From: Escherichia phage K1G | Length of the DNA stretch: 43,587 nucleotides | Sequence record: NC_027993.1 | Strand: one strand, 5' to 3' | Shown here: positions 4,618-41,947 of the stretch, one piece after another | How positions within the stretch are numbered: the stretch's first letter is position 1 | Layout of the letters: every line of letters begins with the position of its first letter | The notes under the pieces: generated by a model | What the model saw: only the letters and a program-made list of their open reading frames with translations | What the model was told of the DNA's origin: nothing | Database searches by the model: none | Program-made: the position numbers and the translations under genes

Positions 4618-4640
4618 CGCCCCGCTTTATGGCGGGGCTT
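4618..4640 (+). promoter_or_regulatory. leader hairpin GCCCCGC-TTTATG-GCGGGGC (possible attenuator or processing site) just upstream of spanin RBS
   Basis: 7-bp GC stem followed by short TTTA; same hairpin in reverse orientation at 36779-36798. Confidence 0.4.
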
Positions 4641-6994: not shown

Positions 6995-7010
6995 GGTTAA
7001 GATATAATCG

Positions 7011-7037
7011 AGAGGGACTTCGGTCCCTCTTTTCATT
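7011..7037 (+). terminator. rho-independent terminator
   Basis: AGAGGGAC-TTCG-GTCCCTCT hairpin (UUCG tetraloop) followed by TTTCATTT. Confidence 0.7.
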
Positions 7038-12302: not shown

Positions 12303-12328
12303 AAGGCCCCGTTTGGGGCCTTTTTCTT
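12303..12328 (+). terminator. rho-independent terminator (convergent junction)
   Basis: AAGGCCCC-GTTT-GGGGCCTT hairpin then TTTCTT; reverse complement of the hairpin at 24829. Confidence 0.7.
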
Positions 12329-15306: not shown

Positions 15307-15671
15307 ACGCGCTGTACAGGTTCGCCACCTATGAGTTTGTGGATAAGCATAAAATCAGAGAGTTTGATTCTATAGCCGACGGACACGAACAGGCGCTTAT
15401 CGCGATGGGTGTAATCGATAAGAAAAAACGTGCAGCGCGACGGGGTGGGCCAGAATGCCCGCCCCTTTTTATATCCACCTTCGAGACGTACTGCGACATT
15501 AAGTTTACGCGACACGTGCGCGAGGACGCTGTAGTATTGTTCGCAAGAGAATCCGTTACGTGGCAAGACCTGAAAGCCTATCTCGATGTTACGCAAAAAC
15601 AGCTTAGCCTGTTCGAGATAGACATTATCATGGGCTTAGAAGCAATCTTTGAAGGTAGAAATCATGGCTGA
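14890..15671 (+). CDS. putative G-T fusion via -1 frameshift near 15298-15304
   Basis: -1 frame is open from 15282 to 15671 and overlaps tape measure start; slippage candidate GAA AAG UAG (Lys tRNA AAG to AAA next to stop). Confidence 0.4.
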
Positions 15672-31218: not shown

Positions 31219-32469
31219 TTATTCCAAATCTTCTTCACTAACCTGATTCCACTCAGGACGTTTGTCGTCTGCCGTTGCGACACATGGTGCGCCTGGCTTA
31301 CGGGTAATAAACGGCTCAAGCGCTGCCATCTCATCCGCAGAAAGAACTTTTGCTGCCTCCGTAGGGGACATCAATACCTCTTTTTTGAGAATGTCGCCGT
31401 GTGACACTTCAATCGCATCGGCATCTTTCCACGCACGATTACCCAGGCGGCCTTCTACCAGTTTGTACCCTGGCACTTTATTACCGGAATGCAATGCGGC
31501 GGACATCGCTTTCTCAACCTTGTCGATGTGCTGGCGCAACAGCGGCAACTTCTCATACTCAACTACGAGTTGCTCCGTCGTCAGTTCCAGCACAAAGTCG
31601 TCTTCAAGTTCTTCCGCTAGTACAGAATTAACCGTCTTTGTACGCGCGGCACACTGTTCAGAGAACCGGCACCACTGGCAACCATCGACCGACGGTTTAA
31701 AGTCCGACGCTTTCAGGTTCTTCTTTCCACGGAAATAAGCATCAAGCGCTAACAGTGCCCGTTTCTGTGCGAACTTAGCGAACAGTTCCAGACCTTCGAC
31801 CGAGATGTCCCACTCTGACGCACCCCCCGCGTACGGCTGGAAGATGACCAGGCGCACTACTGTGATGTTATAACGTCTCTTGAGTCGGCGATAAACACCG
31901 AGAGCGTAAAGCATAAGCTGCTTGTTTTCTTTCGCTTCAACACGATGCCGTCCAGTTTTAAGGTCGCCAATAATGAGCATGTGCTCGTCGGTGTTCGCCA
32001 GTTCCTGGACAGCAACGAGGTCAGCCGTTCCGAACGTCTCGACACCTTCATACCCAGGATGCAATACCTCAGTAAGATTGACTCGCATTTCCAGCTTGGC
32101 GTAAGTCGCTACGTCGATAATCGCTTTGCAGTAGTCGGTGTACTTGCGCACCTGCTCAATCATGTCCGCCGTAATCAGTACCGCGCCTTTCATTGGGCTG
32201 ATTAGCGCCTTAATCTGGCCTTTACCTTCATCCAGCACGTAAGCGCCGACTTCACGCTCTAATGGCAGAGCAGTGCCTTTGATGTACTGGTTAAGGTGCA
32301 TCTCCGCTATGGTGTGGCATGCAGTCCCTGTAACGGCGGCTTTACCAGACGTGTTGGGAATATCTTTCTCACAGGCCAGTGATGCACTGCACGCCAGCCA
32401 CTTTTTAGCGCCAGACGGCGACAGTAAGGCGTGCACATCGTTATTGCCGCCGCGTTCCTTTAAAATCAT
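31219..32469 (-). CDS. Cas4/RecB-like PD-(D/E)xK exonuclease (DUF2800-like)
   Basis: N-terminal LLSPSGAKKWLACSA, nuclease motif IIGDLKTG...QLMLYA, C-terminal Cys cluster CQWCRFSEQC; ATG at 32469 with RBS GGGAGAG. Confidence 0.7.
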   Translation of the reverse strand: MILKERGGNNDVHALLSPSGAKKWLACSASLACEKDIPNTSGKAAVTGTACHTIAEMHLNQYIKGTALPLEREVGAYVLDEGKGQIKALISPMKGAVLITADMIEQVRKYTDYCKAIIDVATYAKLEMRVNLTEVLHPGYEGVETFGTADLVAVQELANTDEHMLIIGDLKTGRHRVEAKENKQLMLYALGVYRRLKRRYNITVVRLVIFQPYAGGASEWDISVEGLELFAKFAQKRALLALDAYFRGKKNLKASDFKPSVDGCQWCRFSEQCAARTKTVNSVLAEELEDDFVLELTTEQLVVEYEKLPLLRQHIDKVEKAMSAALHSGNKVPGYKLVEGRLGNRAWKDADAIEVSHGDILKKEVLMSPTEAAKVLSADEMAALEPFITRKPGAPCVATADDKRPEWNQVSEEDLE

Positions 32470-33854: not shown

Positions 33855-36118
33855 TCCAAATCCTCCTCTGTCACTGTCAGCATCTCATTCGGTTCATATA
33901 TTGTCTTCGGAATCTTGTTATCAGTTATCCGGGTGTTCAGCCTGTAACGGCCAGGGATTATCTGATTGTTTTCGTCAGTCCCCGGAACAAGATACCCAGC
34001 CTCAACCATTTTCTTAATCTTCCCGCGTTCTATGGCTTCTTTGGAGTTAAACGCCTTTGCATTGGGGTCAGACTGTGCGAGCTTATTAGCGGCGGCGACT
34101 GTGATGCCTTCGTTGCCGTTGTAGGTTCCTTCCGCCAGTTCAAACGCCGCCAGTATCGTGGCTTCTGAACTGTTGACGGCGTTCTCTATGGTTTTACGTA
34201 CGTTTTCTTTACCTTCTTTCGTCAACCCTTCTTCCCGCTCTTTCTCCTCGTCAGTCTTGAACGGCTCGAAACCCCACGGCATTAACACAAGTGCCTTATG
34301 CGGCTCCGGCAGGTCTAGGTTTACGATTGTGCCGTATTCCTCCGTGCTACCGAGGAACTCAACCGCACGGTACTCTTTCGGCGGCGGCGCTTCACGGAAC
34401 TGTACAGACTCCAGCACCATACCAACCGTCTTCTGTTGAGGCCCGTGCTTGAATTTCGAGTGGTATACATTTATCTGGCGGTCGGTAGCTCGTTCGATTG
34501 TCAGTTCCACGTCGACGCCAGCATACAGCGCCCCACTGCCACGGGCTTTCTTTCCGCCCTTCGGCGTATGGTGGACAACGCCTACCGCAGCTTTAGTCGC
34601 GTCACGTACTTCTTTCAGGATGGCGATAACCTTACCCATGCCGATTGCCGTTGATGAACTGTTCTCGTCGAACTTATCAATCGTCAGGGCTAGCGTCTGG
34701 TTGAGGGTGTCGAACGCAACCATGCCGATGGGTTCGTCACCCGCAGTTTCACGCATCAACTTAATCAGGCTTTTCAGTTTTCCGACTTCGCCCATGTCGA
34801 TGACATGTACATAATCTTTACCTTCCTCGCTATACTTAGCTGCGAGCGCATCGATACGGGTGCGTGTAGCTGCGCCGCCCTCACCGTCGATATAAAAATG
34901 GTGGCAACGCTGCGTATCTGCCCCCGCAAACCGGTATCCGGCGGCGCTCAGGTACATCATCCCCAGCGTATAGAACGATTTGTACGTGCCGGATTCCCCG
35001 ACAATATCCCAGATACAATCTGACGGCATGTACCCTTCAACGACGAAATCCGCCTTTACCGGTTCCGGTAACTCGTCATCCTCTGAGTCCTCGTCATCTT
35101 CCAGGTCGTCGAGGCTGCATGAAACAGATTCACGTGCACCCCATCCGATGGCCTCTGCGACTTCACTGAACGGCAGCCCCGTCGCATCGCACGCATACTT
35201 CCACACCTCTTTCGGTGACATGCCTTCGGTCGCCGTAATGTCAGTGTCGTGAATCATGGTTACGTTCGGCGCCTCATATCCCTCTCGCGGGAAGCACAGC
35301 AGGAAGTCATCCGGGCGCGGCGTCGGGTCGCTGTAGTTTTCTGCGTGTTCTGGCGTAGCTGGCATCTTAAGGCCTCGTGGCGTCATGATACCGCCATACT
35401 CGAACGCCAGTGCCTCGAACGCGTCGGTAAACGCGGTGCGCAGTTCTTCCGGTATCTGGTAATCCGATGCGCTGCTAACGTCAACGGCGGGGATGCCTTC
35501 CAGTAACTCGTCCGGGTCAATCAGGTCGTTGCGGCGTGACCAGATAACGGTAGAGCCAACCGGAGGCAGGTACATCGGTTGCGAAAGAGTGAACCCGCTG
35601 CGGTCAGCACCCATGCTTTTGAAGAAGTGTTCCAGCAATCCATGGCGAACACGGATGATGTCACCACCTTCGACCGGACGGGCCAGCGGCATGACGACGC
35701 GAAAGCGCGGGGACTCGTCGGTATGTGATGCCGTGGTATAGATACACATGCCCCGGCGGCTGCGTTTAACTAAGCGCACCGCTTCCTGATACTCTTCTGG
35801 TGTTGCGCTGTCGAAGTCCAGATACGCCAGCGACGATTTGCTTACAGACGCGTCACAGCGATAGAAAAAGCCTTTACGCGCTTGCTTAAAGTCGCCGGTT
35901 TCCGGGTCTTTTACAGTGCTGTGCGTCGAGTCGCACGCGGCGGTGATATAACCGGGCGCGGTCTTCGGGTTAATTCCGTCACGGACAGCATCGAGTGGCT
36001 GGATTAACTCTTTCAGGTCGTCCAGTGTTGCCGTGTGTGTGGTTCTGACGTTTATATCCTTTTTCTCAGCCCGCGCGTTGCGACGCGACCACGAGTAGGA
36101 TAAAATTACATCGGACAT
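33851..36118 (-). CDS. DNA primase/helicase (RecA-fold ATPase)
   Basis: 755 aa; Walker A-like GESGTYKSF, large N-terminal domain; RBS GAAGGAAA. Confidence 0.7.
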   Translation of the reverse strand: MSDVILSYSWSRRNARAEKKDINVRTTHTATLDDLKELIQPLDAVRDGINPKTAPGYITAACDSTHSTVKDPETGDFKQARKGFFYRCDASVSKSSLAYLDFDSATPEEYQEAVRLVKRSRRGMCIYTTASHTDESPRFRVVMPLARPVEGGDIIRVRHGLLEHFFKSMGADRSGFTLSQPMYLPPVGSTVIWSRRNDLIDPDELLEGIPAVDVSSASDYQIPEELRTAFTDAFEALAFEYGGIMTPRGLKMPATPEHAENYSDPTPRPDDFLLCFPREGYEAPNVTMIHDTDITATEGMSPKEVWKYACDATGLPFSEVAEAIGWGARESVSCSLDDLEDDEDSEDDELPEPVKADFVVEGYMPSDCIWDIVGESGTYKSFYTLGMMYLSAAGYRFAGADTQRCHHFYIDGEGGAATRTRIDALAAKYSEEGKDYVHVIDMGEVGKLKSLIKLMRETAGDEPIGMVAFDTLNQTLALTIDKFDENSSSTAIGMGKVIAILKEVRDATKAAVGVVHHTPKGGKKARGSGALYAGVDVELTIERATDRQINVYHSKFKHGPQQKTVGMVLESVQFREAPPPKEYRAVEFLGSTEEYGTIVNLDLPEPHKALVLMPWGFEPFKTDEEKEREEGLTKEGKENVRKTIENAVNSSEATILAAFELAEGTYNGNEGITVAAANKLAQSDPNAKAFNSKEAIERGKIKKMVEAGYLVPGTDENNQIIPGRYRLNTRITDNKIPKTIYEPNEMLTVTEEDLE

Positions 36119-36176
36119 GTTATATTTCCTTCAGCAAGTAATTTGGCCTCGGCGTTCACCGCGTCGGGGCTTTCTT

Positions 36177-36452
36177 TTATTCCAGGTCGCGGGAGATATT
36201 ACCCTCGGGCACCAACACTTTTCCAATACTTCTCGCTTTCTCTGTAATAGGCGTCGCTCTTGTTGCCCGATAAAACTTTCCTTTATTAAGAATCTCACCA
36301 TGTCGCTCGAGCACATCTAAAGCATGTTTGATCGGGTTTACACCGTAATTATCCAACCGGTATCTCCGAAGCCCGTCTACCGTAAAAGCGCCGTTCGCTT
36401 CGGTCAGTCTGCGTGCACACATTAATATGTGTTTCTGGAATTTAGTTAGCAT
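36177..36452 (-). CDS. hypothetical protein
   Basis: ATG at 36452 with RBS AAGGAG; overlaps 3' end of upstream HTH gene. Confidence 0.45.
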   Translation of the reverse strand: MLTKFQKHILMCARRLTEANGAFTVDGLRRYRLDNYGVNPIKHALDVLERHGEILNKGKFYRATRATPITEKARSIGKVLVPEGNISRDLE

Positions 36453-36621: not shown

Positions 36622-36778
36622 TTTACGCGCCCTCTCTATCAAGTGAAACAACTATAACACCTACAATAGACAAACACAACCTATTGACAAAATAAAATGT
36701 AGCTGTAAAATCAACGTATCGAATGGCTTTAGTTAAGAATTACTTAGAAACAATATTCTTAAGTCTCGGGTACTTAAA

Positions 36779-39916: not shown

Positions 39917-40181
39917 GCTATTCTGGTTTGTCACAATGCTTTCAATGGGCGCTTCGTCCCTGTTCAACGTGTATAATGAACGCGTGGACGACGGGCTGTT
40001 CGGGCGTGTTCTCTATATCCTGACTGCTATCGTCTGTGCCGCCGGATGTGTTCACCTGTTACAGGGCAGCATGTCGCCTACGCTGCCTGAGACATTAATC
40101 ACATTAGTCGCGCTGCGCCAGATTCGCCAGGCGTGGCTGTCATACGGAGGACATAAGCGTGTCTCGAAATATTTCAGATAA
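39909..40181 (+). CDS. second holin-like membrane protein (holin/antiholin)
   Basis: ATG 39909 with RBS AGGAGG; two hydrophobic segments; overlaps neighbours. Confidence 0.5.
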   Translation: MTELFWFVTMLSMGASSLFNVYNERVDDGLFGRVLYILTAIVCAAGCVHLLQGSMSPTLPETLITLVALRQIRQAWLSYGGHKRVSKYFR

Positions 40182-40644
40182 TGGATTGCATTTCTGTGCC
40201 GCGTTCGAGGGATTCCGCGGAACTGCGTATCGCGCTACGCCGAATGAGAAGTATCTTACTATTGGCTACGGTCACTACGGGCCAGACGTAACACCAGGTA
40301 AGACCATCACACCAGGACAGGGCTTGCTGTTACTGAATCGCGATATGGCTAAGGCTGTAGCTGCTGTTGACGCAGCAGCACACCATTCGCTTACACAGGC
40401 ACAGTTCGATGCGGTGTGTGACCTGGTCTATAACGTGGGGGCTGGCGTGATTTCGGCTACTACCGGTACAGGTAAGGCACTGCGCTCCGGTGATATCGCG
40501 ACGTTACGGGCTAAGCTGGCGCTGTTCATCAACCAGAACGGCAAACCACTACTTGGCCTGCGTCGCCGTACAGCCGGGCGTCTGGCGCTGTTCGACGGTA
40601 AACCGTGGCAAGAGGCTGAGGCTATCGGTAGGGCGGTTAAATGA
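40159..40644 (+). CDS. endolysin, T4-lysozyme-like (GH24), GTG start
   Basis: AAFEGFRGTAY...TIGYGHYG catalytic-region motif; RBS ACGGAGGA. Confidence 0.8.
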   Translation: MSRNISDNGLHFCAAFEGFRGTAYRATPNEKYLTIGYGHYGPDVTPGKTITPGQGLLLLNRDMAKAVAAVDAAAHHSLTQAQFDAVCDLVYNVGAGVISATTGTGKALRSGDIATLRAKLALFINQNGKPLLGLRRRTAGRLALFDGKPWQEAEAIGRAVK

Positions 40645-40771
40645 TGGACGAATACGAAGGCGTTTAGTAAACTTACATCCACGCTGTTTGTGCCTGCATA
40701 CTAAGCCCCGGTAAACCCGAAGCAGCAGCCCAAGCGGTGGAGACTGCGTAGGGTTCAGGGGCTTATGCCCG

Positions 40772-40803
40772 AAACCCGGACCGCGAATCCGGGTTTTATT
40801 TTA
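40772..40803 (+). terminator. rho-independent terminator
   Basis: ACCCGGA-CCGCGAA-TCCGGGT hairpin followed by TTTATTTTA. Confidence 0.6.
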
Positions 40804-40807
40804 CCAA

Positions 40808-40836
40808 TTGACACCTGAGACTAATCCGACGATACT
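40808..40836 (+). promoter_or_regulatory. candidate promoter TTGACA-N17-GATACT
   Basis: perfect -35, 4/6 -10; sits between two terminators. Confidence 0.35.
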
Positions 40837-40842
40837 TAAATC

Positions 40843-40909
40843 ACCTCCTGTTCCATCCCTCTGCTCTCCAGTTTTATCCCGGCCCTTACCCAGCCGGGAT
40901 TTTTTTTAT
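40843..40909 (+). ncRNA. candidate ~65-nt small RNA with anti-Shine-Dalgarno-like motif AUCACCUCCU
   Basis: promoter-terminator unit with no ORF; C/U-rich body; 10-nt match to 16S rRNA 3' end sequence. Confidence 0.25.
40878..40909 (+). terminator. rho-independent terminator
   Basis: CCCGGC-CCTTACCCA-GCCGGG hairpin followed by ATTTTTTTT. Confidence 0.7.
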
Positions 40910-40929
40910 CCGTTTTCTGTAATGACTAG

Positions 40930-40958
40930 TTGACTATTACCTTAGACCCTATTATATT
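40930..40958 (+). promoter_or_regulatory. promoter TTGACT-N17-TATATT
   Basis: hexamers and 17-bp spacer read directly; upstream of ORF 40992. Confidence 0.5.
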
Positions 40959-40991
40959 TACTCCATCGACAACGAGAACGGAGTAGAGAAA

Positions 40992-41141
40992 ATGAAAATC
41001 ACAGACATCGAAGCATTCAAAGACGCACAACTGATGGCACGCATCGCCGTTAGTAACCTGAGCAACAGCATTCCAGCGGACGCGTTCTGGTTCGCTGCGA
41101 TGCAGACACTTAAAGCAGCTTATGCAGGAGAGAAGAAATGA
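40992..41141 (+). CDS. small hypothetical protein (49 aa)
   Basis: RBS GGAGTAGAG; ATGA overlap with next ORF. Confidence 0.45.
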   Translation: MKITDIEAFKDAQLMARIAVSNLSNSIPADAFWFAAMQTLKAAYAGEKK

Positions 41142-41778: not shown

Positions 41779-41947
41779 ACCCGTAGTTATCGATGGCGTC
41801 CTGTGGAAACCATACTCGGTTAACCACATCGACGCCGACGGGAAGAAGTTCAGCTTCTACATTTTTGCAATTAGCCGTGAGCACGCCGCTTGTGTGGTCG
41901 ACGATATACGAGAAACGGCGTGGCTCGGTGATGAGATAGTGGGGTGA
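41765..41947 (+). CDS. hypothetical protein
   Basis: 60-aa ORF in coupled series. Confidence 0.45.
   Translation: MKAPEPVVIDGVLWKPYSVNHIDADGKKFSFYIFAISREHAACVVDDIRETAWLGDEIVG

What the first reader, a model, noticed from the sequence alone, without database searches (positions are those of the whole stretch)
40808..40909. Promoter-terminator unit with no ORF: candidate small RNA carrying a 16S-3'-end-like anti-SD motif
Between two strong terminators (40772-40803 and 40878-40909) lies TTGACA-N17-GATACT. The roughly 65-nt downstream stretch is C/U-rich with no plausible ORF and begins with AAUCACCUCCUGUU, sharing the 10-nt core AUCACCUCCU with the 3' end of 16S rRNA. A transcript like this could base-pair with Shine-Dalgarno regions of mRNAs. 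It lies between the lysis cassette and the next early operon.
Basis: partly seen in the sequence, partly recalled or inferred. Interest (0 to 1): 0.5.

Follow-up and report, generated by a model that had tools for sequence, protein, structure and literature searches.

The report
Conserved orphan small-RNA gene in phages
Just after the lysis genes of this E. coli phage sits a strong promoter, about 65 bases of pyrimidine-rich non-coding sequence and a terminator; the same unit is kept in about 450 related phage genomes and annotated in none of those inspected, so it is very probably an undescribed small regulatory RNA, though its target is unknown and the "ribosomal-RNA-like" motif is only partly conserved.

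Summary
Window 40808-40907 holds TTGACA-N17-GATACT, a 33-nt unpaired pyrimidine-rich stretch with no AUG or GUG, and an 8-bp GC hairpin followed by U8.

The window is a complete Kagunavirus genome (about 93% identical to K1ind1). The same unit sits between the endolysin gene and a second promoter in about 450 Kagunavirus and Jerseyvirus records. A shorter version occupies the same position in Cornellvirus.

- **Promoter:** in 48 distinct variants the -35 hexamer, the -10 hexamer and the 17-bp spacing are each kept in 47. Spacer and discriminator sequences are replaced between lineages.
- **Selection:** the RNA region is 3-5 times less diverse than nearby synonymous sites or the neighbouring P2 spacer.
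- **Terminator:** the stem shows a compensatory C:G to U:A change.

This supports a real, self-contained non-coding RNA gene with the build of an enterobacterial Hfq-type sRNA.

The anti-SD reading is only partly supported. The 10-mer AUCACCUCCU is specific to Kagunavirus and probably starts before the transcription start. Only CUCCUG and CAUCCCUCU are shared with Jerseyvirus, and Cornellvirus keeps only UUCCAYCC.

No Rfam family, E. coli homologue or long antisense site was found. Target predictions are weak: the best is the translation start after ninH in Jerseyvirus (p about 0.01-0.035).

Verdict: a new member of a known kind. Interest 0.5.

The parts
40645..40807 (+). Lineage-specific 160-bp insert between the endolysin stop and P1. 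It holds a structured element and its own intrinsic terminator (stem 40771-40780 paired with 40788-40797, then a UAUUUU tail). It is not part of the conserved unit.
   Evidence: 33 of 120 Kagunavirus records cover at least 80% of a 351-nt query spanning the insert. Other lineages join the endolysin gene, or other genes, directly to TTGACA. Fold -51.5 kcal/mol for 40660-40806; terminator hairpin -14.4 kcal/mol.
40808..40836 (+). Promoter P1: -35 TTGACA (40808-40813), 17-bp spacer, -10 GATACT (40831-40836).
   Evidence: Scores 10 of 12 in the consensus scan. In 48 distinct variants the -35 is TTGACA in 47, the -10 is GATACT in 47, and the spacer is 17 bp in 47. The spacer is only about 59% identical between genera (my count from the sequences) and looks unrelated in variant L038, which keeps TTGACA-N17-CATACT. 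The hexamers and spacing equal those of lambda PL (from my own knowledge).
40840..40849 (+). The 10-mer ATCACCTCCT, shared with the 3' end of 16S rRNA. It straddles the predicted transcription start.
   Evidence: One exact match in the window; with one mismatch, 2 matches against 1.5 expected. Present in Kagunavirus only.
40843..40875 (+). Predicted unpaired 5' region of the RNA, with the start inferred at A40843: ACCUCCUGUUCCAUCCCUCUGCUCUCCAGUUUU. It carries CUCCUG, CAUCCCUCU and a U-rich stretch just before the hairpin.
   Evidence: Unpaired in both the minimum-energy and centroid folds. 27/33 pyrimidine. Diversity pi 0.077 against 0.37 at endolysin third codon positions. No AUG or GUG in any of 48 variants.
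40876..40907 (+). Intrinsic terminator of the RNA: stem 40876-40883 paired with 40893-40900, 9-nt loop, and a T8 run at 40900-40907 whose first T is the last stem base.
   Evidence: -13.8 kcal/mol, z -2.8. 91% of alignment cells are paired, against 20-52% when the partners are slid. One pair is C:G in 12 sequences and U:A in 8. Cornellvirus has two further stem sequences at the same place.
40930..40991 (+). Second promoter P2 (TTGACT-N17-TATATT, 40930-40958) and the highly conserved purine-rich 5' UTR leading to the ATG at 40992. This is the neighbour and anchor of the unit, and a weak candidate target.
   Evidence: The stretch from the terminator to the ATG is 85% identical between genera, against 72-75% for the flanking genes. 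UTR pi 0.024 and P2 spacer pi 0.258. Duplex with the sRNA is -15 to -24 kcal/mol; p about 0.19 against sRNA shuffles and about 0.035 against UTR shuffles.

Best explanation
40808-40907 is a self-contained gene for a non-coding RNA of about 65 nt. The gene is conserved throughout the virulent siphophage subfamily Guernseyvirinae.

**Transcription (inferred).** Host sigma-70 RNA polymerase starts at P1, whose hexamers and spacing equal those of lambda PL. Transcription probably begins at A40843 and stops at the intrinsic terminator ending at 40907.

**Shape (computed).** The RNA has 29-35 unpaired pyrimidine-rich nucleotides (20 in Cornellvirus). A short U-rich stretch follows, then one GC-rich hairpin and a U7-14 tail (U8 in the window). 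This is the build of an enterobacterial Hfq-dependent trans-acting sRNA.

**Mechanism (inferred).** The most likely action is base-pairing of the unpaired C/U-rich region with purine-rich translation start regions. The region reads as the complement of GGAG-N8/9-AUG. The targets would be host or phage mRNAs, and pairing would block 30S binding.

**What is shown and what is not.**
- Shown by comparison and folding: the anatomy, its conservation, the selection on the promoter geometry and on the RNA sequence, and the terminator structure.
- Inferred: transcription itself, the exact 5' end, Hfq dependence and the pairing mechanism.
- Unknown: the target.
For: **Distribution.** The unit is in about 440-450 phage records, all Guernseyvirinae, always between the lysis cassette and P2. 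The covariance model finds exactly one copy per genome. It also detects the unit at the same position in Cornellvirus at E of about 1e-5 to 1e-2, 19-30 bits.

**Promoter-type conservation.**
- The -35 hexamer, the -10 hexamer and the 17-bp spacing are each kept in 47 of 48 distinct variants.
- The spacer and discriminator differ between genera, and in variant L038 they look unrelated.
- At least five different upstream contexts all join at TTGACA.

**Constraint on the RNA**, in 15 Kagunaviruses that share the same endolysin type:

| Segment | Diversity (pi) |
|---|---|
| Unpaired region | 0.077 |
| Hairpin | 0 |
| Endolysin third codon positions | 0.37 |
| P2 spacer, inside the same module | 0.258 |

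**Structure.**
- All three genera give the same fold: an unpaired 5' region plus a single hairpin of -13.5 to -14.3 kcal/mol.
- The stem is 91% paired and has a compensatory C:G to U:A pair.
- Cornellvirus uses two other stem sequences.

**Non-coding.** No AUG or GUG occurs in any variant; UUG occurs in 10 of 48.

**Best database matches.** The top Rfam matches, all below threshold, are sRNAs with a C/U-rich single strand and a terminator.

**Candidate target.** The Jerseyvirus RNA forms 12-14 contiguous pairs with the translation start of the gene after ninH. This gives p about 0.01 against composition-matched shuffles, or about 0.035 after taking the best of 63 start regions.
Against: - **No expression data.** No transcriptome or sRNA report for these phages was found.
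- **The anti-SD element is not conserved.** CUCCUG is shared only by Kagunavirus and Jerseyvirus. Cornellvirus has none.
- **No target is supported in both genera.**
  - The best site in the window (exonuclease translation start, 11 bp) is not conserved in K1ind1 or SETP3.
  - Kagunavirus start regions pair no better with the sRNA than with shuffled RNAs: p 0.2, 0.19 and 0.19.
- **No long complement.** Nothing of 11 nt or more is complementary elsewhere in the genome. Nothing matched in 5,426 E. coli genomes at blastn sensitivity.
- **Between genera the unit is no better conserved than its neighbours:** 71-73% against 72-75% for the flanking genes.
- **Low diversity within Kagunavirus could partly reflect recombinational spread** of the module rather than selection.
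Confidence: 0.45

Rival explanations
1. This is a boundary element, not a riboregulator. The hairpin is chiefly the terminator of the lysis operon. P1 is a real promoter whose short product is a by-product with no function of its own. P1 might act in tandem with P2, giving leaky read-through into the nin-like and structural operon, or it might affect local polymerase or supercoiling.
For: - In most lineages no other terminator separates the endolysin gene from this hairpin, so it must also end the lysis transcript.
- P2 and its UTR, not the RNA, are the best-conserved part (85%; pi 0.024).
- No convincing target was found.
Against: - A by-product would not keep 33 nt at pi 0.077 while the P2 spacer in the same module drifts at 0.258.
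- It would not stay free of G and of start codons in 48 variants.
- It would not keep an unpaired pyrimidine-rich 5' part in three genera.
- P2 is itself a strong promoter directly after the terminator, so P1 is not needed to drive the operon.
Confidence: 0.2
2. This is a leader for regulated read-through, like lambda PR'-tR' (6S RNA, StxS). Polymerase starting at P1 normally stops at the terminator. A phage factor later makes it terminator-resistant, so that it can read the long structural operon, which contains several internal terminators.
For: - It has the same anatomy as PR'-6S-tR': a strong constitutive promoter, a short non-coding transcript and a terminator, placed upstream of nin-like, terminase and structural genes.
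- The + strand structural region holds several terminator-like hairpins.
- StxS shows that such short transcripts can double as sRNAs (from my own knowledge).
Against: - No -10-like pause element in the initially transcribed region is shared by the genera: TAAATC, AAACCT and GGTGTC before the conserved part.
- No Q or antiterminator family was found among 10 neighbouring small proteins.
- An independent strong promoter, P2, follows the terminator.
- Nothing resembling two-hairpin put-type RNA is present.
Confidence: 0.1
3. This is a protein decoy rather than a pairing RNA. An abundant, unstructured, C-rich and G-poor RNA would titrate a host protein that binds single-stranded pyrimidines, such as Rho (rut-like YC repeats), ribosomal protein S1 or Hfq itself.
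For: - What all three genera share is composition and lack of structure rather than one long motif. Most substitutions keep a pyrimidine, C to U or U to C.
- P1 is predicted to be very strong.
- The Cornellvirus version lacks any anti-SD motif.
Against: - 20-33 nt is short for a Rho hexamer.
- The motif CAUCCCUCU is invariant in nearly all Kagunavirus and Jerseyvirus variants, which suggests sequence-specific recognition.
Confidence: 0.1
4. This is a cis-antisense RNA or a small protein gene on the opposite strand. The reverse complement reads like a ribosome binding site plus a mini-ORF: GGAGAGCAGAGGG-AUG-GAA-CAG-GAG-GUG-AUU-UAA.
For: - The complement has GGAG, 8-9 nt and then AUG in Kagunavirus and Jerseyvirus (sequences).
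- The Bas76 annotators called minus-strand CDSs here.
Against: - The peptide is not conserved: MEQEVI, MNKQEQV, a long read-through in other Jerseyviruses, MEYLKYTTN in Cornellvirus.
- No minus-strand promoter stronger than 9 of 12 lies within 1.5 kb.
- All neighbouring genes are on the + strand.
Confidence: 0.03

Closest known systems
Enterobacterial Hfq-dependent trans-acting sRNAs with a 5' single-stranded seed and a terminator module (for example RybB, OmrA/B, prophage-encoded DicF)
   Same: - Own sigma-70 promoter and a length of about 65 nt.
- An unpaired 5' region.
- A U-rich stretch directly before a single GC hairpin, then a poly-U tail. This is the "Hfq-binding module" as I know it from the literature.
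   Different: - No sequence or model similarity to any Rfam family at gathering score.
- The seed is C/U-rich.
- It is encoded by strictly virulent phages rather than by the host or a prophage. The known phage sRNAs listed in the review PMC12197685 are mostly from temperate phages.
- Hfq binding and targets are untested.
Betaproteobacteria toxic sRNA (RF02278) and Burkholderia anti-hemB (RF02837)
   Same: These are the best Rfam matches. Both are short RNAs with C/U-rich anti-SD-type single strands followed by a GCCCGG-type terminator.
   Different: - Scores are 25.3 and 20.6 bits against gathering scores of 50 and 49.5.
- The alignment covers only UCUCC and the terminator, and skips 23 or more model positions.
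- The hosts are unrelated.
- It is not a member of either family.
Lambda 6S RNA and StxS (short PR'-tR' transcripts of lambdoid phages)
   Same: A strong constitutive promoter, a short non-coding transcript and an intrinsic terminator, placed ahead of the morphogenesis genes. StxS shows that such a transcript can act as an Hfq-bound sRNA (from my own knowledge).
   Different: - The unit follows the lysis genes instead of preceding them.
- A second strong promoter follows it.
- No conserved pause element and no Q-like gene were found.
- There is no sequence similarity.
Phage antisense RNAs that mask ribosome binding sites (P22 sar, lambda OOP, P1/P7 c4)
   Same: Small phage RNAs of 68-77 nt whose job is to cover an SD or start codon (table in PMC12197685).
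   Different: Those RNAs have an overlapping or extensively complementary target within the phage. Here nothing of 11 nt or more is complementary elsewhere in the genome, and the opposite strand has no gene.
C-rich sRNAs of Firmicutes (RsaE/RoxS type) and E. coli CyaR
   Same: They use C-rich or CCUCC-like unpaired motifs to pair with SD sequences (from my own knowledge).
   Different: Their motifs sit in hairpin loops and are repeated. There is no homology: CyaR (RF00112, accession from memory) and the others were not reported by cmscan.

Membership tests
Sigma-70 promoter | -35 and -10 hexamers close to TTGACA and TATAAT, 16-18 bp apart | tested here: met
   TTGACA-N17-GATACT scores 10 of 12. 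Each element is kept in 47 of 48 variants while the spacer sequence changes.
Sigma-70 promoter | Initiates transcription in vivo or in vitro | not testable with these tools
   No transcriptome data for Kagunavirus or Jerseyvirus were found.
Intrinsic (Rho-independent) terminator | A GC-rich hairpin followed at once by a U tract | tested here: met
   An 8-bp stem (6 G:C pairs), -13.8 kcal/mol, then U8. 91% of cells are paired, with one compensatory pair. The simple scan missed it because the loop is 9 nt.
Hfq-dependent trans-acting sRNA | A 3' module: U-rich stretch, terminator hairpin and a poly-U tail of at least 6 | tested here: met
   GUUUUA (Kagunavirus), CUUUA (Jerseyvirus) or CUUU (Cornellvirus) precedes the hairpin. 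The tails are U7-U14.
Hfq-dependent trans-acting sRNA | A conserved unpaired seed that pairs with defined mRNA targets | tested here: inconclusive
   The seed-like motifs CUCCUG and CAUCCCUCU are conserved. Targets are not established: p 0.2 in Kagunavirus and 0.035 in Jerseyvirus; 0.19 and 0.01 at the start region after ninH. The host genome could not be scanned.
Hfq-dependent trans-acting sRNA | Binds Hfq and depends on it for stability or function | not testable with these tools
   Needs co-immunoprecipitation or RIL-seq.
Rfam RF02278 Betaproteobacteria toxic sRNA / RF02837 anti-hemB | Covariance-model score at or above the family's gathering score | tested here: not met
   25.3 bits against 50, and 20.6 bits against 49.5.
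   - ACCUCCU is in most Kagunaviruses.
- Two Kagunavirus variants have ACUCCUUG.
- Jerseyvirus has GCUCCUG.
- Cornellvirus has none.
- The first 3 nt of the 10-mer probably lie upstream of the transcription start.
Q-type late promoter unit (PR'-tR') | A conserved -10-like pause element in the initially transcribed region | tested here: not met
   The first bases after the -10 hexamer differ between lineages, and none keeps a TAnnnT element.
Q-type late promoter unit (PR'-tR') | An antiterminator gene nearby, and no independent promoter for the downstream operon | tested here: not met
   No Q or antiterminator Pfam family was found in 10 neighbouring small proteins. P2, TTGACT-N17-TATATT, follows the terminator. 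A novel antiterminator cannot be excluded.
Cis-antisense RNA | An expressed gene or transcript on the opposite strand | tested here: not met
   There is no conserved minus-strand ORF and no minus-strand promoter of 10 of 12 or better within 1.5 kb.

The most novel reading that the evidence does not exclude
Guernseyvirinae are virulent E. coli, Salmonella and Raoultella phages. They may all carry one trans-acting sRNA that is fired from a PL-grade promoter at the start of infection. Its unstructured pyrimidine-rich 5' half would be an "anti-start-site" sequence, the complement of GGAG-N8/9-AUG. It would mask the Shine-Dalgarno sequence and start codon of selected host or phage messages. The gene after ninH is the only candidate with any support. 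This would be the first conserved riboregulator described for a whole subfamily of strictly lytic enterobacterial siphophages.
Probability: 0.3. Interest if true: 0.65.

Novelty: new member of a known kind. Interest (0 to 1): 0.5.

Why it matters
**Gap in knowledge.** Most characterised phage sRNAs come from temperate phages and prophages (review PMC12197685). Here a clear, unannotated sRNA gene candidate is present once per genome in about 450 sequenced virulent phages. Members of these genera are, to my knowledge, often proposed for biocontrol or phage therapy. If the RNA is expressed and active, it would show how a lytic siphophage without its own RNA polymerase uses riboregulation during takeover or for timing.

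**Annotation.** The unit would fix a recurring annotation gap. None of the annotated records I inspected names an RNA here. They show either nothing or short ORFs that I judge spurious, on either strand.

**Experimental handle.** The natural variants form a ready-made mutational series: L038 with a replaced spacer, L036 and L057 with an altered 5' motif, and Cornellvirus with a shortened RNA.

**Limit.** The anatomy itself is ordinary for an sRNA, so the interest depends on finding the target.

Tried and rejected
1. **Rfam membership.** Only sub-threshold hits, driven by the terminator.
2. **Host homologue or long host complement.** blastn against 5,426 complete E. coli genomes found nothing. 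Short sRNA-type pairings are below that search's sensitivity, so host targets remain untested.
3. **Antisense target within the phage.** No complement of 11 nt or more.
4. **Exonuclease translation start.** This was the best duplex in the genome (AUG at 32469, minus strand; 11 bp). It is rejected because the site is not kept in K1ind1 or SETP3.
5. **Ranking of annotated translation start regions.**
   - K1ind1 shows no enrichment over shuffled RNAs (p 0.2).
   - In SETP3 the best site is gp62 (p 0.035).
6. **Pairing with the adjacent, highly conserved P2 5' UTR and start codon.**
   - There are 12-15 interrupted pairs by eye, but p is about 0.19 against composition-matched sRNA shuffles.
   - UTR variants (L056, L057) show no compensatory change.
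   - Kept only as a weak candidate.
7. **Start region after ninH as a target shared by both genera.** It is the recurrent top site. It beats the shuffle control (p about 0.01) only in Jerseyvirus, and not in Kagunavirus (0.19). Covariation with the sRNA G21A variant is inconsistent.
8. **Lysis-gene start regions (holins, endolysin).** None is among the top sites.
9. **Q-type antitermination.** No conserved pause element and no Q family.
10. **Minus-strand mini-ORF.** The peptide is not conserved.
11. **Complement to 16S rRNA around position 1170.** A 9-nt match recalled from memory (CUCCAGUUU against AAACUGGAG). Chance level is about 0.15 and the match is absent in Jerseyvirus, so it was dropped.
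12. **My early impression that homology starts exactly at -35.** Across genera this was partly an artefact of the insert in the query. Between genera the unit is no better conserved than the flanking genes. The claim holds only for the different upstream contexts within Kagunavirus.
Full report
**What the window is.** The 43,587-bp window is a complete genome of a Kagunavirus (Guernseyvirinae). It is about 93% identical to Escherichia phage K1ind1 along its length, and 99.7% identical around the finding. On the + strand the gene order is holins, then endolysin (40159-40644), then the finding. Next come a second promoter and a run of small nin-like genes (DUF2737, DUF3850/ASCH, NinH). These lead into the terminase and structural genes across the circular junction.

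**Check of the observation.**
- TTGACA (40808-40813), 17 bp, then GATACT (40831-40836) is there and scores 10 of 12. From my own knowledge these are the hexamers and spacing of lambda PL, one of the strongest sigma-70 promoters.
- With the usual 7-nt distance, transcription should start at A40843, the only purine in 40841-40849.
- From there the RNA reads ACCUCCUGUUCCAUCCCUCUGCUCUCCAGUUUUAUCCCGGCCCUUACCCAGCCGGGAUUUUUUUU.
- It folds as 33 unpaired nucleotides, then an 8-bp hairpin (-13.8 kcal/mol, z -2.8), then U8.
- The unpaired part is 27/33 pyrimidine with 3 G, in the top 0.07% of windows in the genome.
- It has no AUG, GUG or UUG. The 41-aa ORF in the mechanical list starts at the TTG inside the -35 hexamer.
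- The upstream terminator is also real: a 10-bp stem (40771-40780 with 40788-40797) at -14.4 kcal/mol.
- The 10-mer ATCACCTCCT is at 40840-40849. One such match is not beyond chance, and its first three bases probably precede the start.

**Comparative evidence that this is a gene.**
- *Distribution.* A blastn search finds the unit in about 440-450 phage records, all Guernseyvirinae: Kagunavirus (including Raoultella phage RP180) and Jerseyvirus. No annotated record I inspected names an RNA here. Annotators left the region empty, marked only the terminator and the second promoter, or called short ORFs that I judge spurious, on either strand.
- *Unbiased sample.* To sample the RNA without bias I anchored a scan of IMG/VR on the second promoter. 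Every Guernseyvirinae contig that extended upstream carried the unit.
- *Promoter.* In 48 distinct variants the -35 is TTGACA in 47, the -10 is GATACT in 47, and the spacer is 17 bp in 47. The one 16-bp case is an UNVERIFIED record with other single-base deletions.
- *Spacer and discriminator.* The spacer is only about 59% identical between the two genera (my count from the aligned sequences). The six bases between the -10 hexamer and the start differ completely (TAAATC, AAACCT, GGTGTC). In variant L038 the spacer and discriminator look unrelated, yet TTGACA-N17-CATACT is kept. That is the pattern expected of a working promoter.
- *Upstream contexts.* Within Kagunavirus at least five different upstream contexts all join the unit at TTGACA. 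These include two or more endolysin types, other genes, and the 160-bp insert present in this window. In the commonest type the endolysin stop codon TGA lies inside the -35 hexamer.

**Selection on the RNA.** I compared 15 Kagunaviruses that share the same endolysin type.

| Segment | Pairwise diversity (pi) |
|---|---|
| Endolysin third codon positions | 0.37 (0.26 in the last 100 nt) |
| P2 spacer (17 bp, inside the same module) | 0.258 |
| P1 spacer | 0.095 |
| Unpaired RNA region | 0.077 |
| P2 5' UTR | 0.024 |
| Hairpin | 0 |

- Most changes in the unpaired region swap C and U, and G never increases.
- Two caveats apply. The site numbers are small, and recombinational spread of the module could lower diversity. 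The fast-evolving P2 spacer argues against that as the whole explanation.
- Between genera the unit is 71-73% identical, no better than the flanking genes at 72-75%. The stretch from the terminator to the next start codon is 85% identical.

**Structure.**
- In an alignment of 20 variants the hairpin is paired in 91% of cells, against 20-52% when the partners are slid.
- One pair is C:G in 12 sequences and U:A in 8. Jerseyvirus extends the stem by two A:U pairs.
- A covariance model built from this alignment finds exactly one copy per genome: 86.9 bits in the window and 81 bits in SETP3.
- It also detects, at 19-30 bits (E about 1e-5 to 1e-2), a shorter unit at the same place in five Cornellvirus genomes.
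- In Cornellvirus the -35 lies inside the endolysin gene (TTGGAC-N17-TATACT). The RNA would be about 50 nt: AUUCCACCCAGCCAGC(C)UUU, a hairpin and U8. The genus uses two different stem sequences.
- All three genera therefore share one architecture: an unpaired pyrimidine-rich 5' part, a short U-rich stretch, one GC hairpin and a poly-U tail.

**What is and is not conserved in the sequence.**
- The 16S-like ten-mer is specific to Kagunavirus.
- Jerseyvirus RNAs begin GCUCCUG.
- Two Kagunavirus variants read ACUCCUUG.
- Cornellvirus has no CUCC.
- The most widely kept motif is UUCCAYCC, extended to CAUCCCUCU in Kagunavirus and Jerseyvirus.
- In those two genera the unpaired region reads as the complement of an idealised translation start: GGAG, 8-9 nt, AUG. 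The peptide that the complement would encode is not conserved, and nothing suggests minus-strand expression.

**Search for what it acts on.**
- No Rfam family reaches its threshold. The best hits (Betaproteobacteria toxic sRNA at 25.3 bits against 50; anti-hemB; PsrR1) are other sRNAs with a C/U-rich strand and a terminator. The alignments rest on the terminator.
- Nothing similar or extensively complementary exists in 5,426 complete E. coli genomes at blastn sensitivity. Nothing of 11 nt or more is complementary elsewhere in the phage.
- The best duplex in the window is the exonuclease translation start (GGAGAGCAGGG, AUG at 32469 on the minus strand). It is not conserved in K1ind1 or SETP3.
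- Ranking all annotated start regions gives no enrichment over composition-matched shuffles in K1ind1 (p 0.2). In SETP3 there is a best site at gp62 (-30.1 kcal/mol, p 0.035).
- The adjacent purine-rich P2 UTR pairs at -15 to -24 kcal/mol, but shuffled pyrimidine-rich RNAs do nearly as well (p about 0.19). UTR variants show no compensation.
- Scanning 30 or more loci showed that the start region just after ninH is the recurrent top site in both genera. It beats the shuffle control (p about 0.01) only in Jerseyvirus (12-14 contiguous pairs, AGCUGGAGGGGUGA), and not in Kagunavirus (0.19).
- The target is therefore open. Host start regions could not be scanned with these tools.

**Interpretation.**
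- I am fairly confident (about 0.75) that this is a real, independently transcribed non-coding RNA gene.
- The most likely mechanism is that of an Hfq-type base-pairing sRNA that uses its unpaired C/U-rich 5' half on purine-rich translation start regions. I put the whole statement, gene plus mechanism, at 0.45.
- The rivals are:
  - a boundary element whose RNA is a by-product (0.2);
  - a PR'-tR'-like read-through leader (0.1; no conserved pause element, no Q family among the neighbours, and a second promoter follows);
  - a decoy for Rho, S1 or Hfq (0.1);
  - an opposite-strand gene (0.03).
- No transcriptome or sRNA report for these phages was found in the literature searched.

**Verdict.** The small-RNA interpretation is supported. 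The specific 16S-mimic anti-SD idea is only partly supported. This is a new, unannotated member of a known kind (phage-encoded sRNA), conserved across a subfamily of virulent phages. Its interest is moderate until a target is found.

Noticed in passing
window 36078-36180 (+ strand): A second promoter-to-terminator unit with no ORF. It has TTGCGA-N17-TAAAAT (9 of 12), then about 65 nt, then the hairpin 36145-36171 followed by TTTCTTTTATT. It runs antisense across the SD and start codon of the helicase-primase gene (ATG at 36118 on the minus strand). The sequence is conserved in K1ind1 and, with changes, in SETP3. This is a candidate cis-antisense RNA controlling primase translation. The promoter overlaps coding sequence, so its conservation is ambiguous.
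   Followed up: partly
window 40645-40807: A 160-bp insert between the endolysin stop and P1. It holds a long imperfect hairpin (AAGCCCC...GGGGCUU) and its own terminator. The fold of 40660-40806 is -51.5 kcal/mol, z -2.3. 33 of 120 Kagunavirus records cover at least 80% of a 351-nt query spanning it. Function unknown; it could be a 3' UTR element of the lysis mRNA or another small RNA.
   Followed up: partly
window 40959-40991 (5' UTR after P2): The purine-rich leader CATCGACAACGAGAACGGAGTAGAGA is more conserved than the surrounding genes: 85% between genera and pi 0.024 within Kagunavirus. The first gene behind it differs between phages. This suggests the leader itself is functional.
   Followed up: partly
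L006 (K1H) 595-604 and the other short-type Kagunavirus loci: The endolysin stop codon TGA is embedded in the -35 hexamer of P1 (GGT TGA CA). In those phages the lysis mRNA must run through the sRNA sequence and use the sRNA terminator, so the sRNA is also the 3' end of the lysis transcript.
   Followed up: no
L004, L007, L008 and other Jerseyvirus loci, P1 spacer: The Jerseyvirus P1 spacer contains an inverted repeat, TAGGA-N4-TCCTA (CATAGGAGTATTCCTAA). It was seen by eye only. It could be an operator for a regulator of P1. It is not present in Kagunavirus.
   Followed up: no
L018 (SETP3) 41922-41940 and the same site in other Jerseyvirus loci: The end of the ninH-family gene and the start of gp62, a small hydrophobic protein (MDSFLILMGIGF...), is complementary to the Jerseyvirus sRNA over 12-14 contiguous pairs covering the SD and start codon.
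   Followed up: partly
window 40801-40923, minus strand (equivalent of Bas76_0074/0075 in L002): Automatic annotation of phage Bas76 places two short hypothetical CDSs on the minus strand across the sRNA, terminator and P2 region. They run through the poly-A of the terminator, have no conserved product, and I judge them spurious.
   Followed up: partly
window + strand 2756-2771, 4619-4638, 7010-7031, 12303-12322, 15442-15465: Several strong terminator-like hairpins lie inside the long rightward structural operon. The one at 12303-12322 scores on both strands. How late transcription passes them is unclear.
   Followed up: no
window 33363-33335, 31214-31186, 27660-27632 (minus strand) and 36684-36711 (+ strand): A small set of near-consensus sigma-70 promoters (TTGACA or TTGACG, N16-17, then TATAGT or TAAAAT). 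With P1 and P2 they probably define the transcription units of a phage in which the annotated records I read list no RNA polymerase gene.
   Followed up: no
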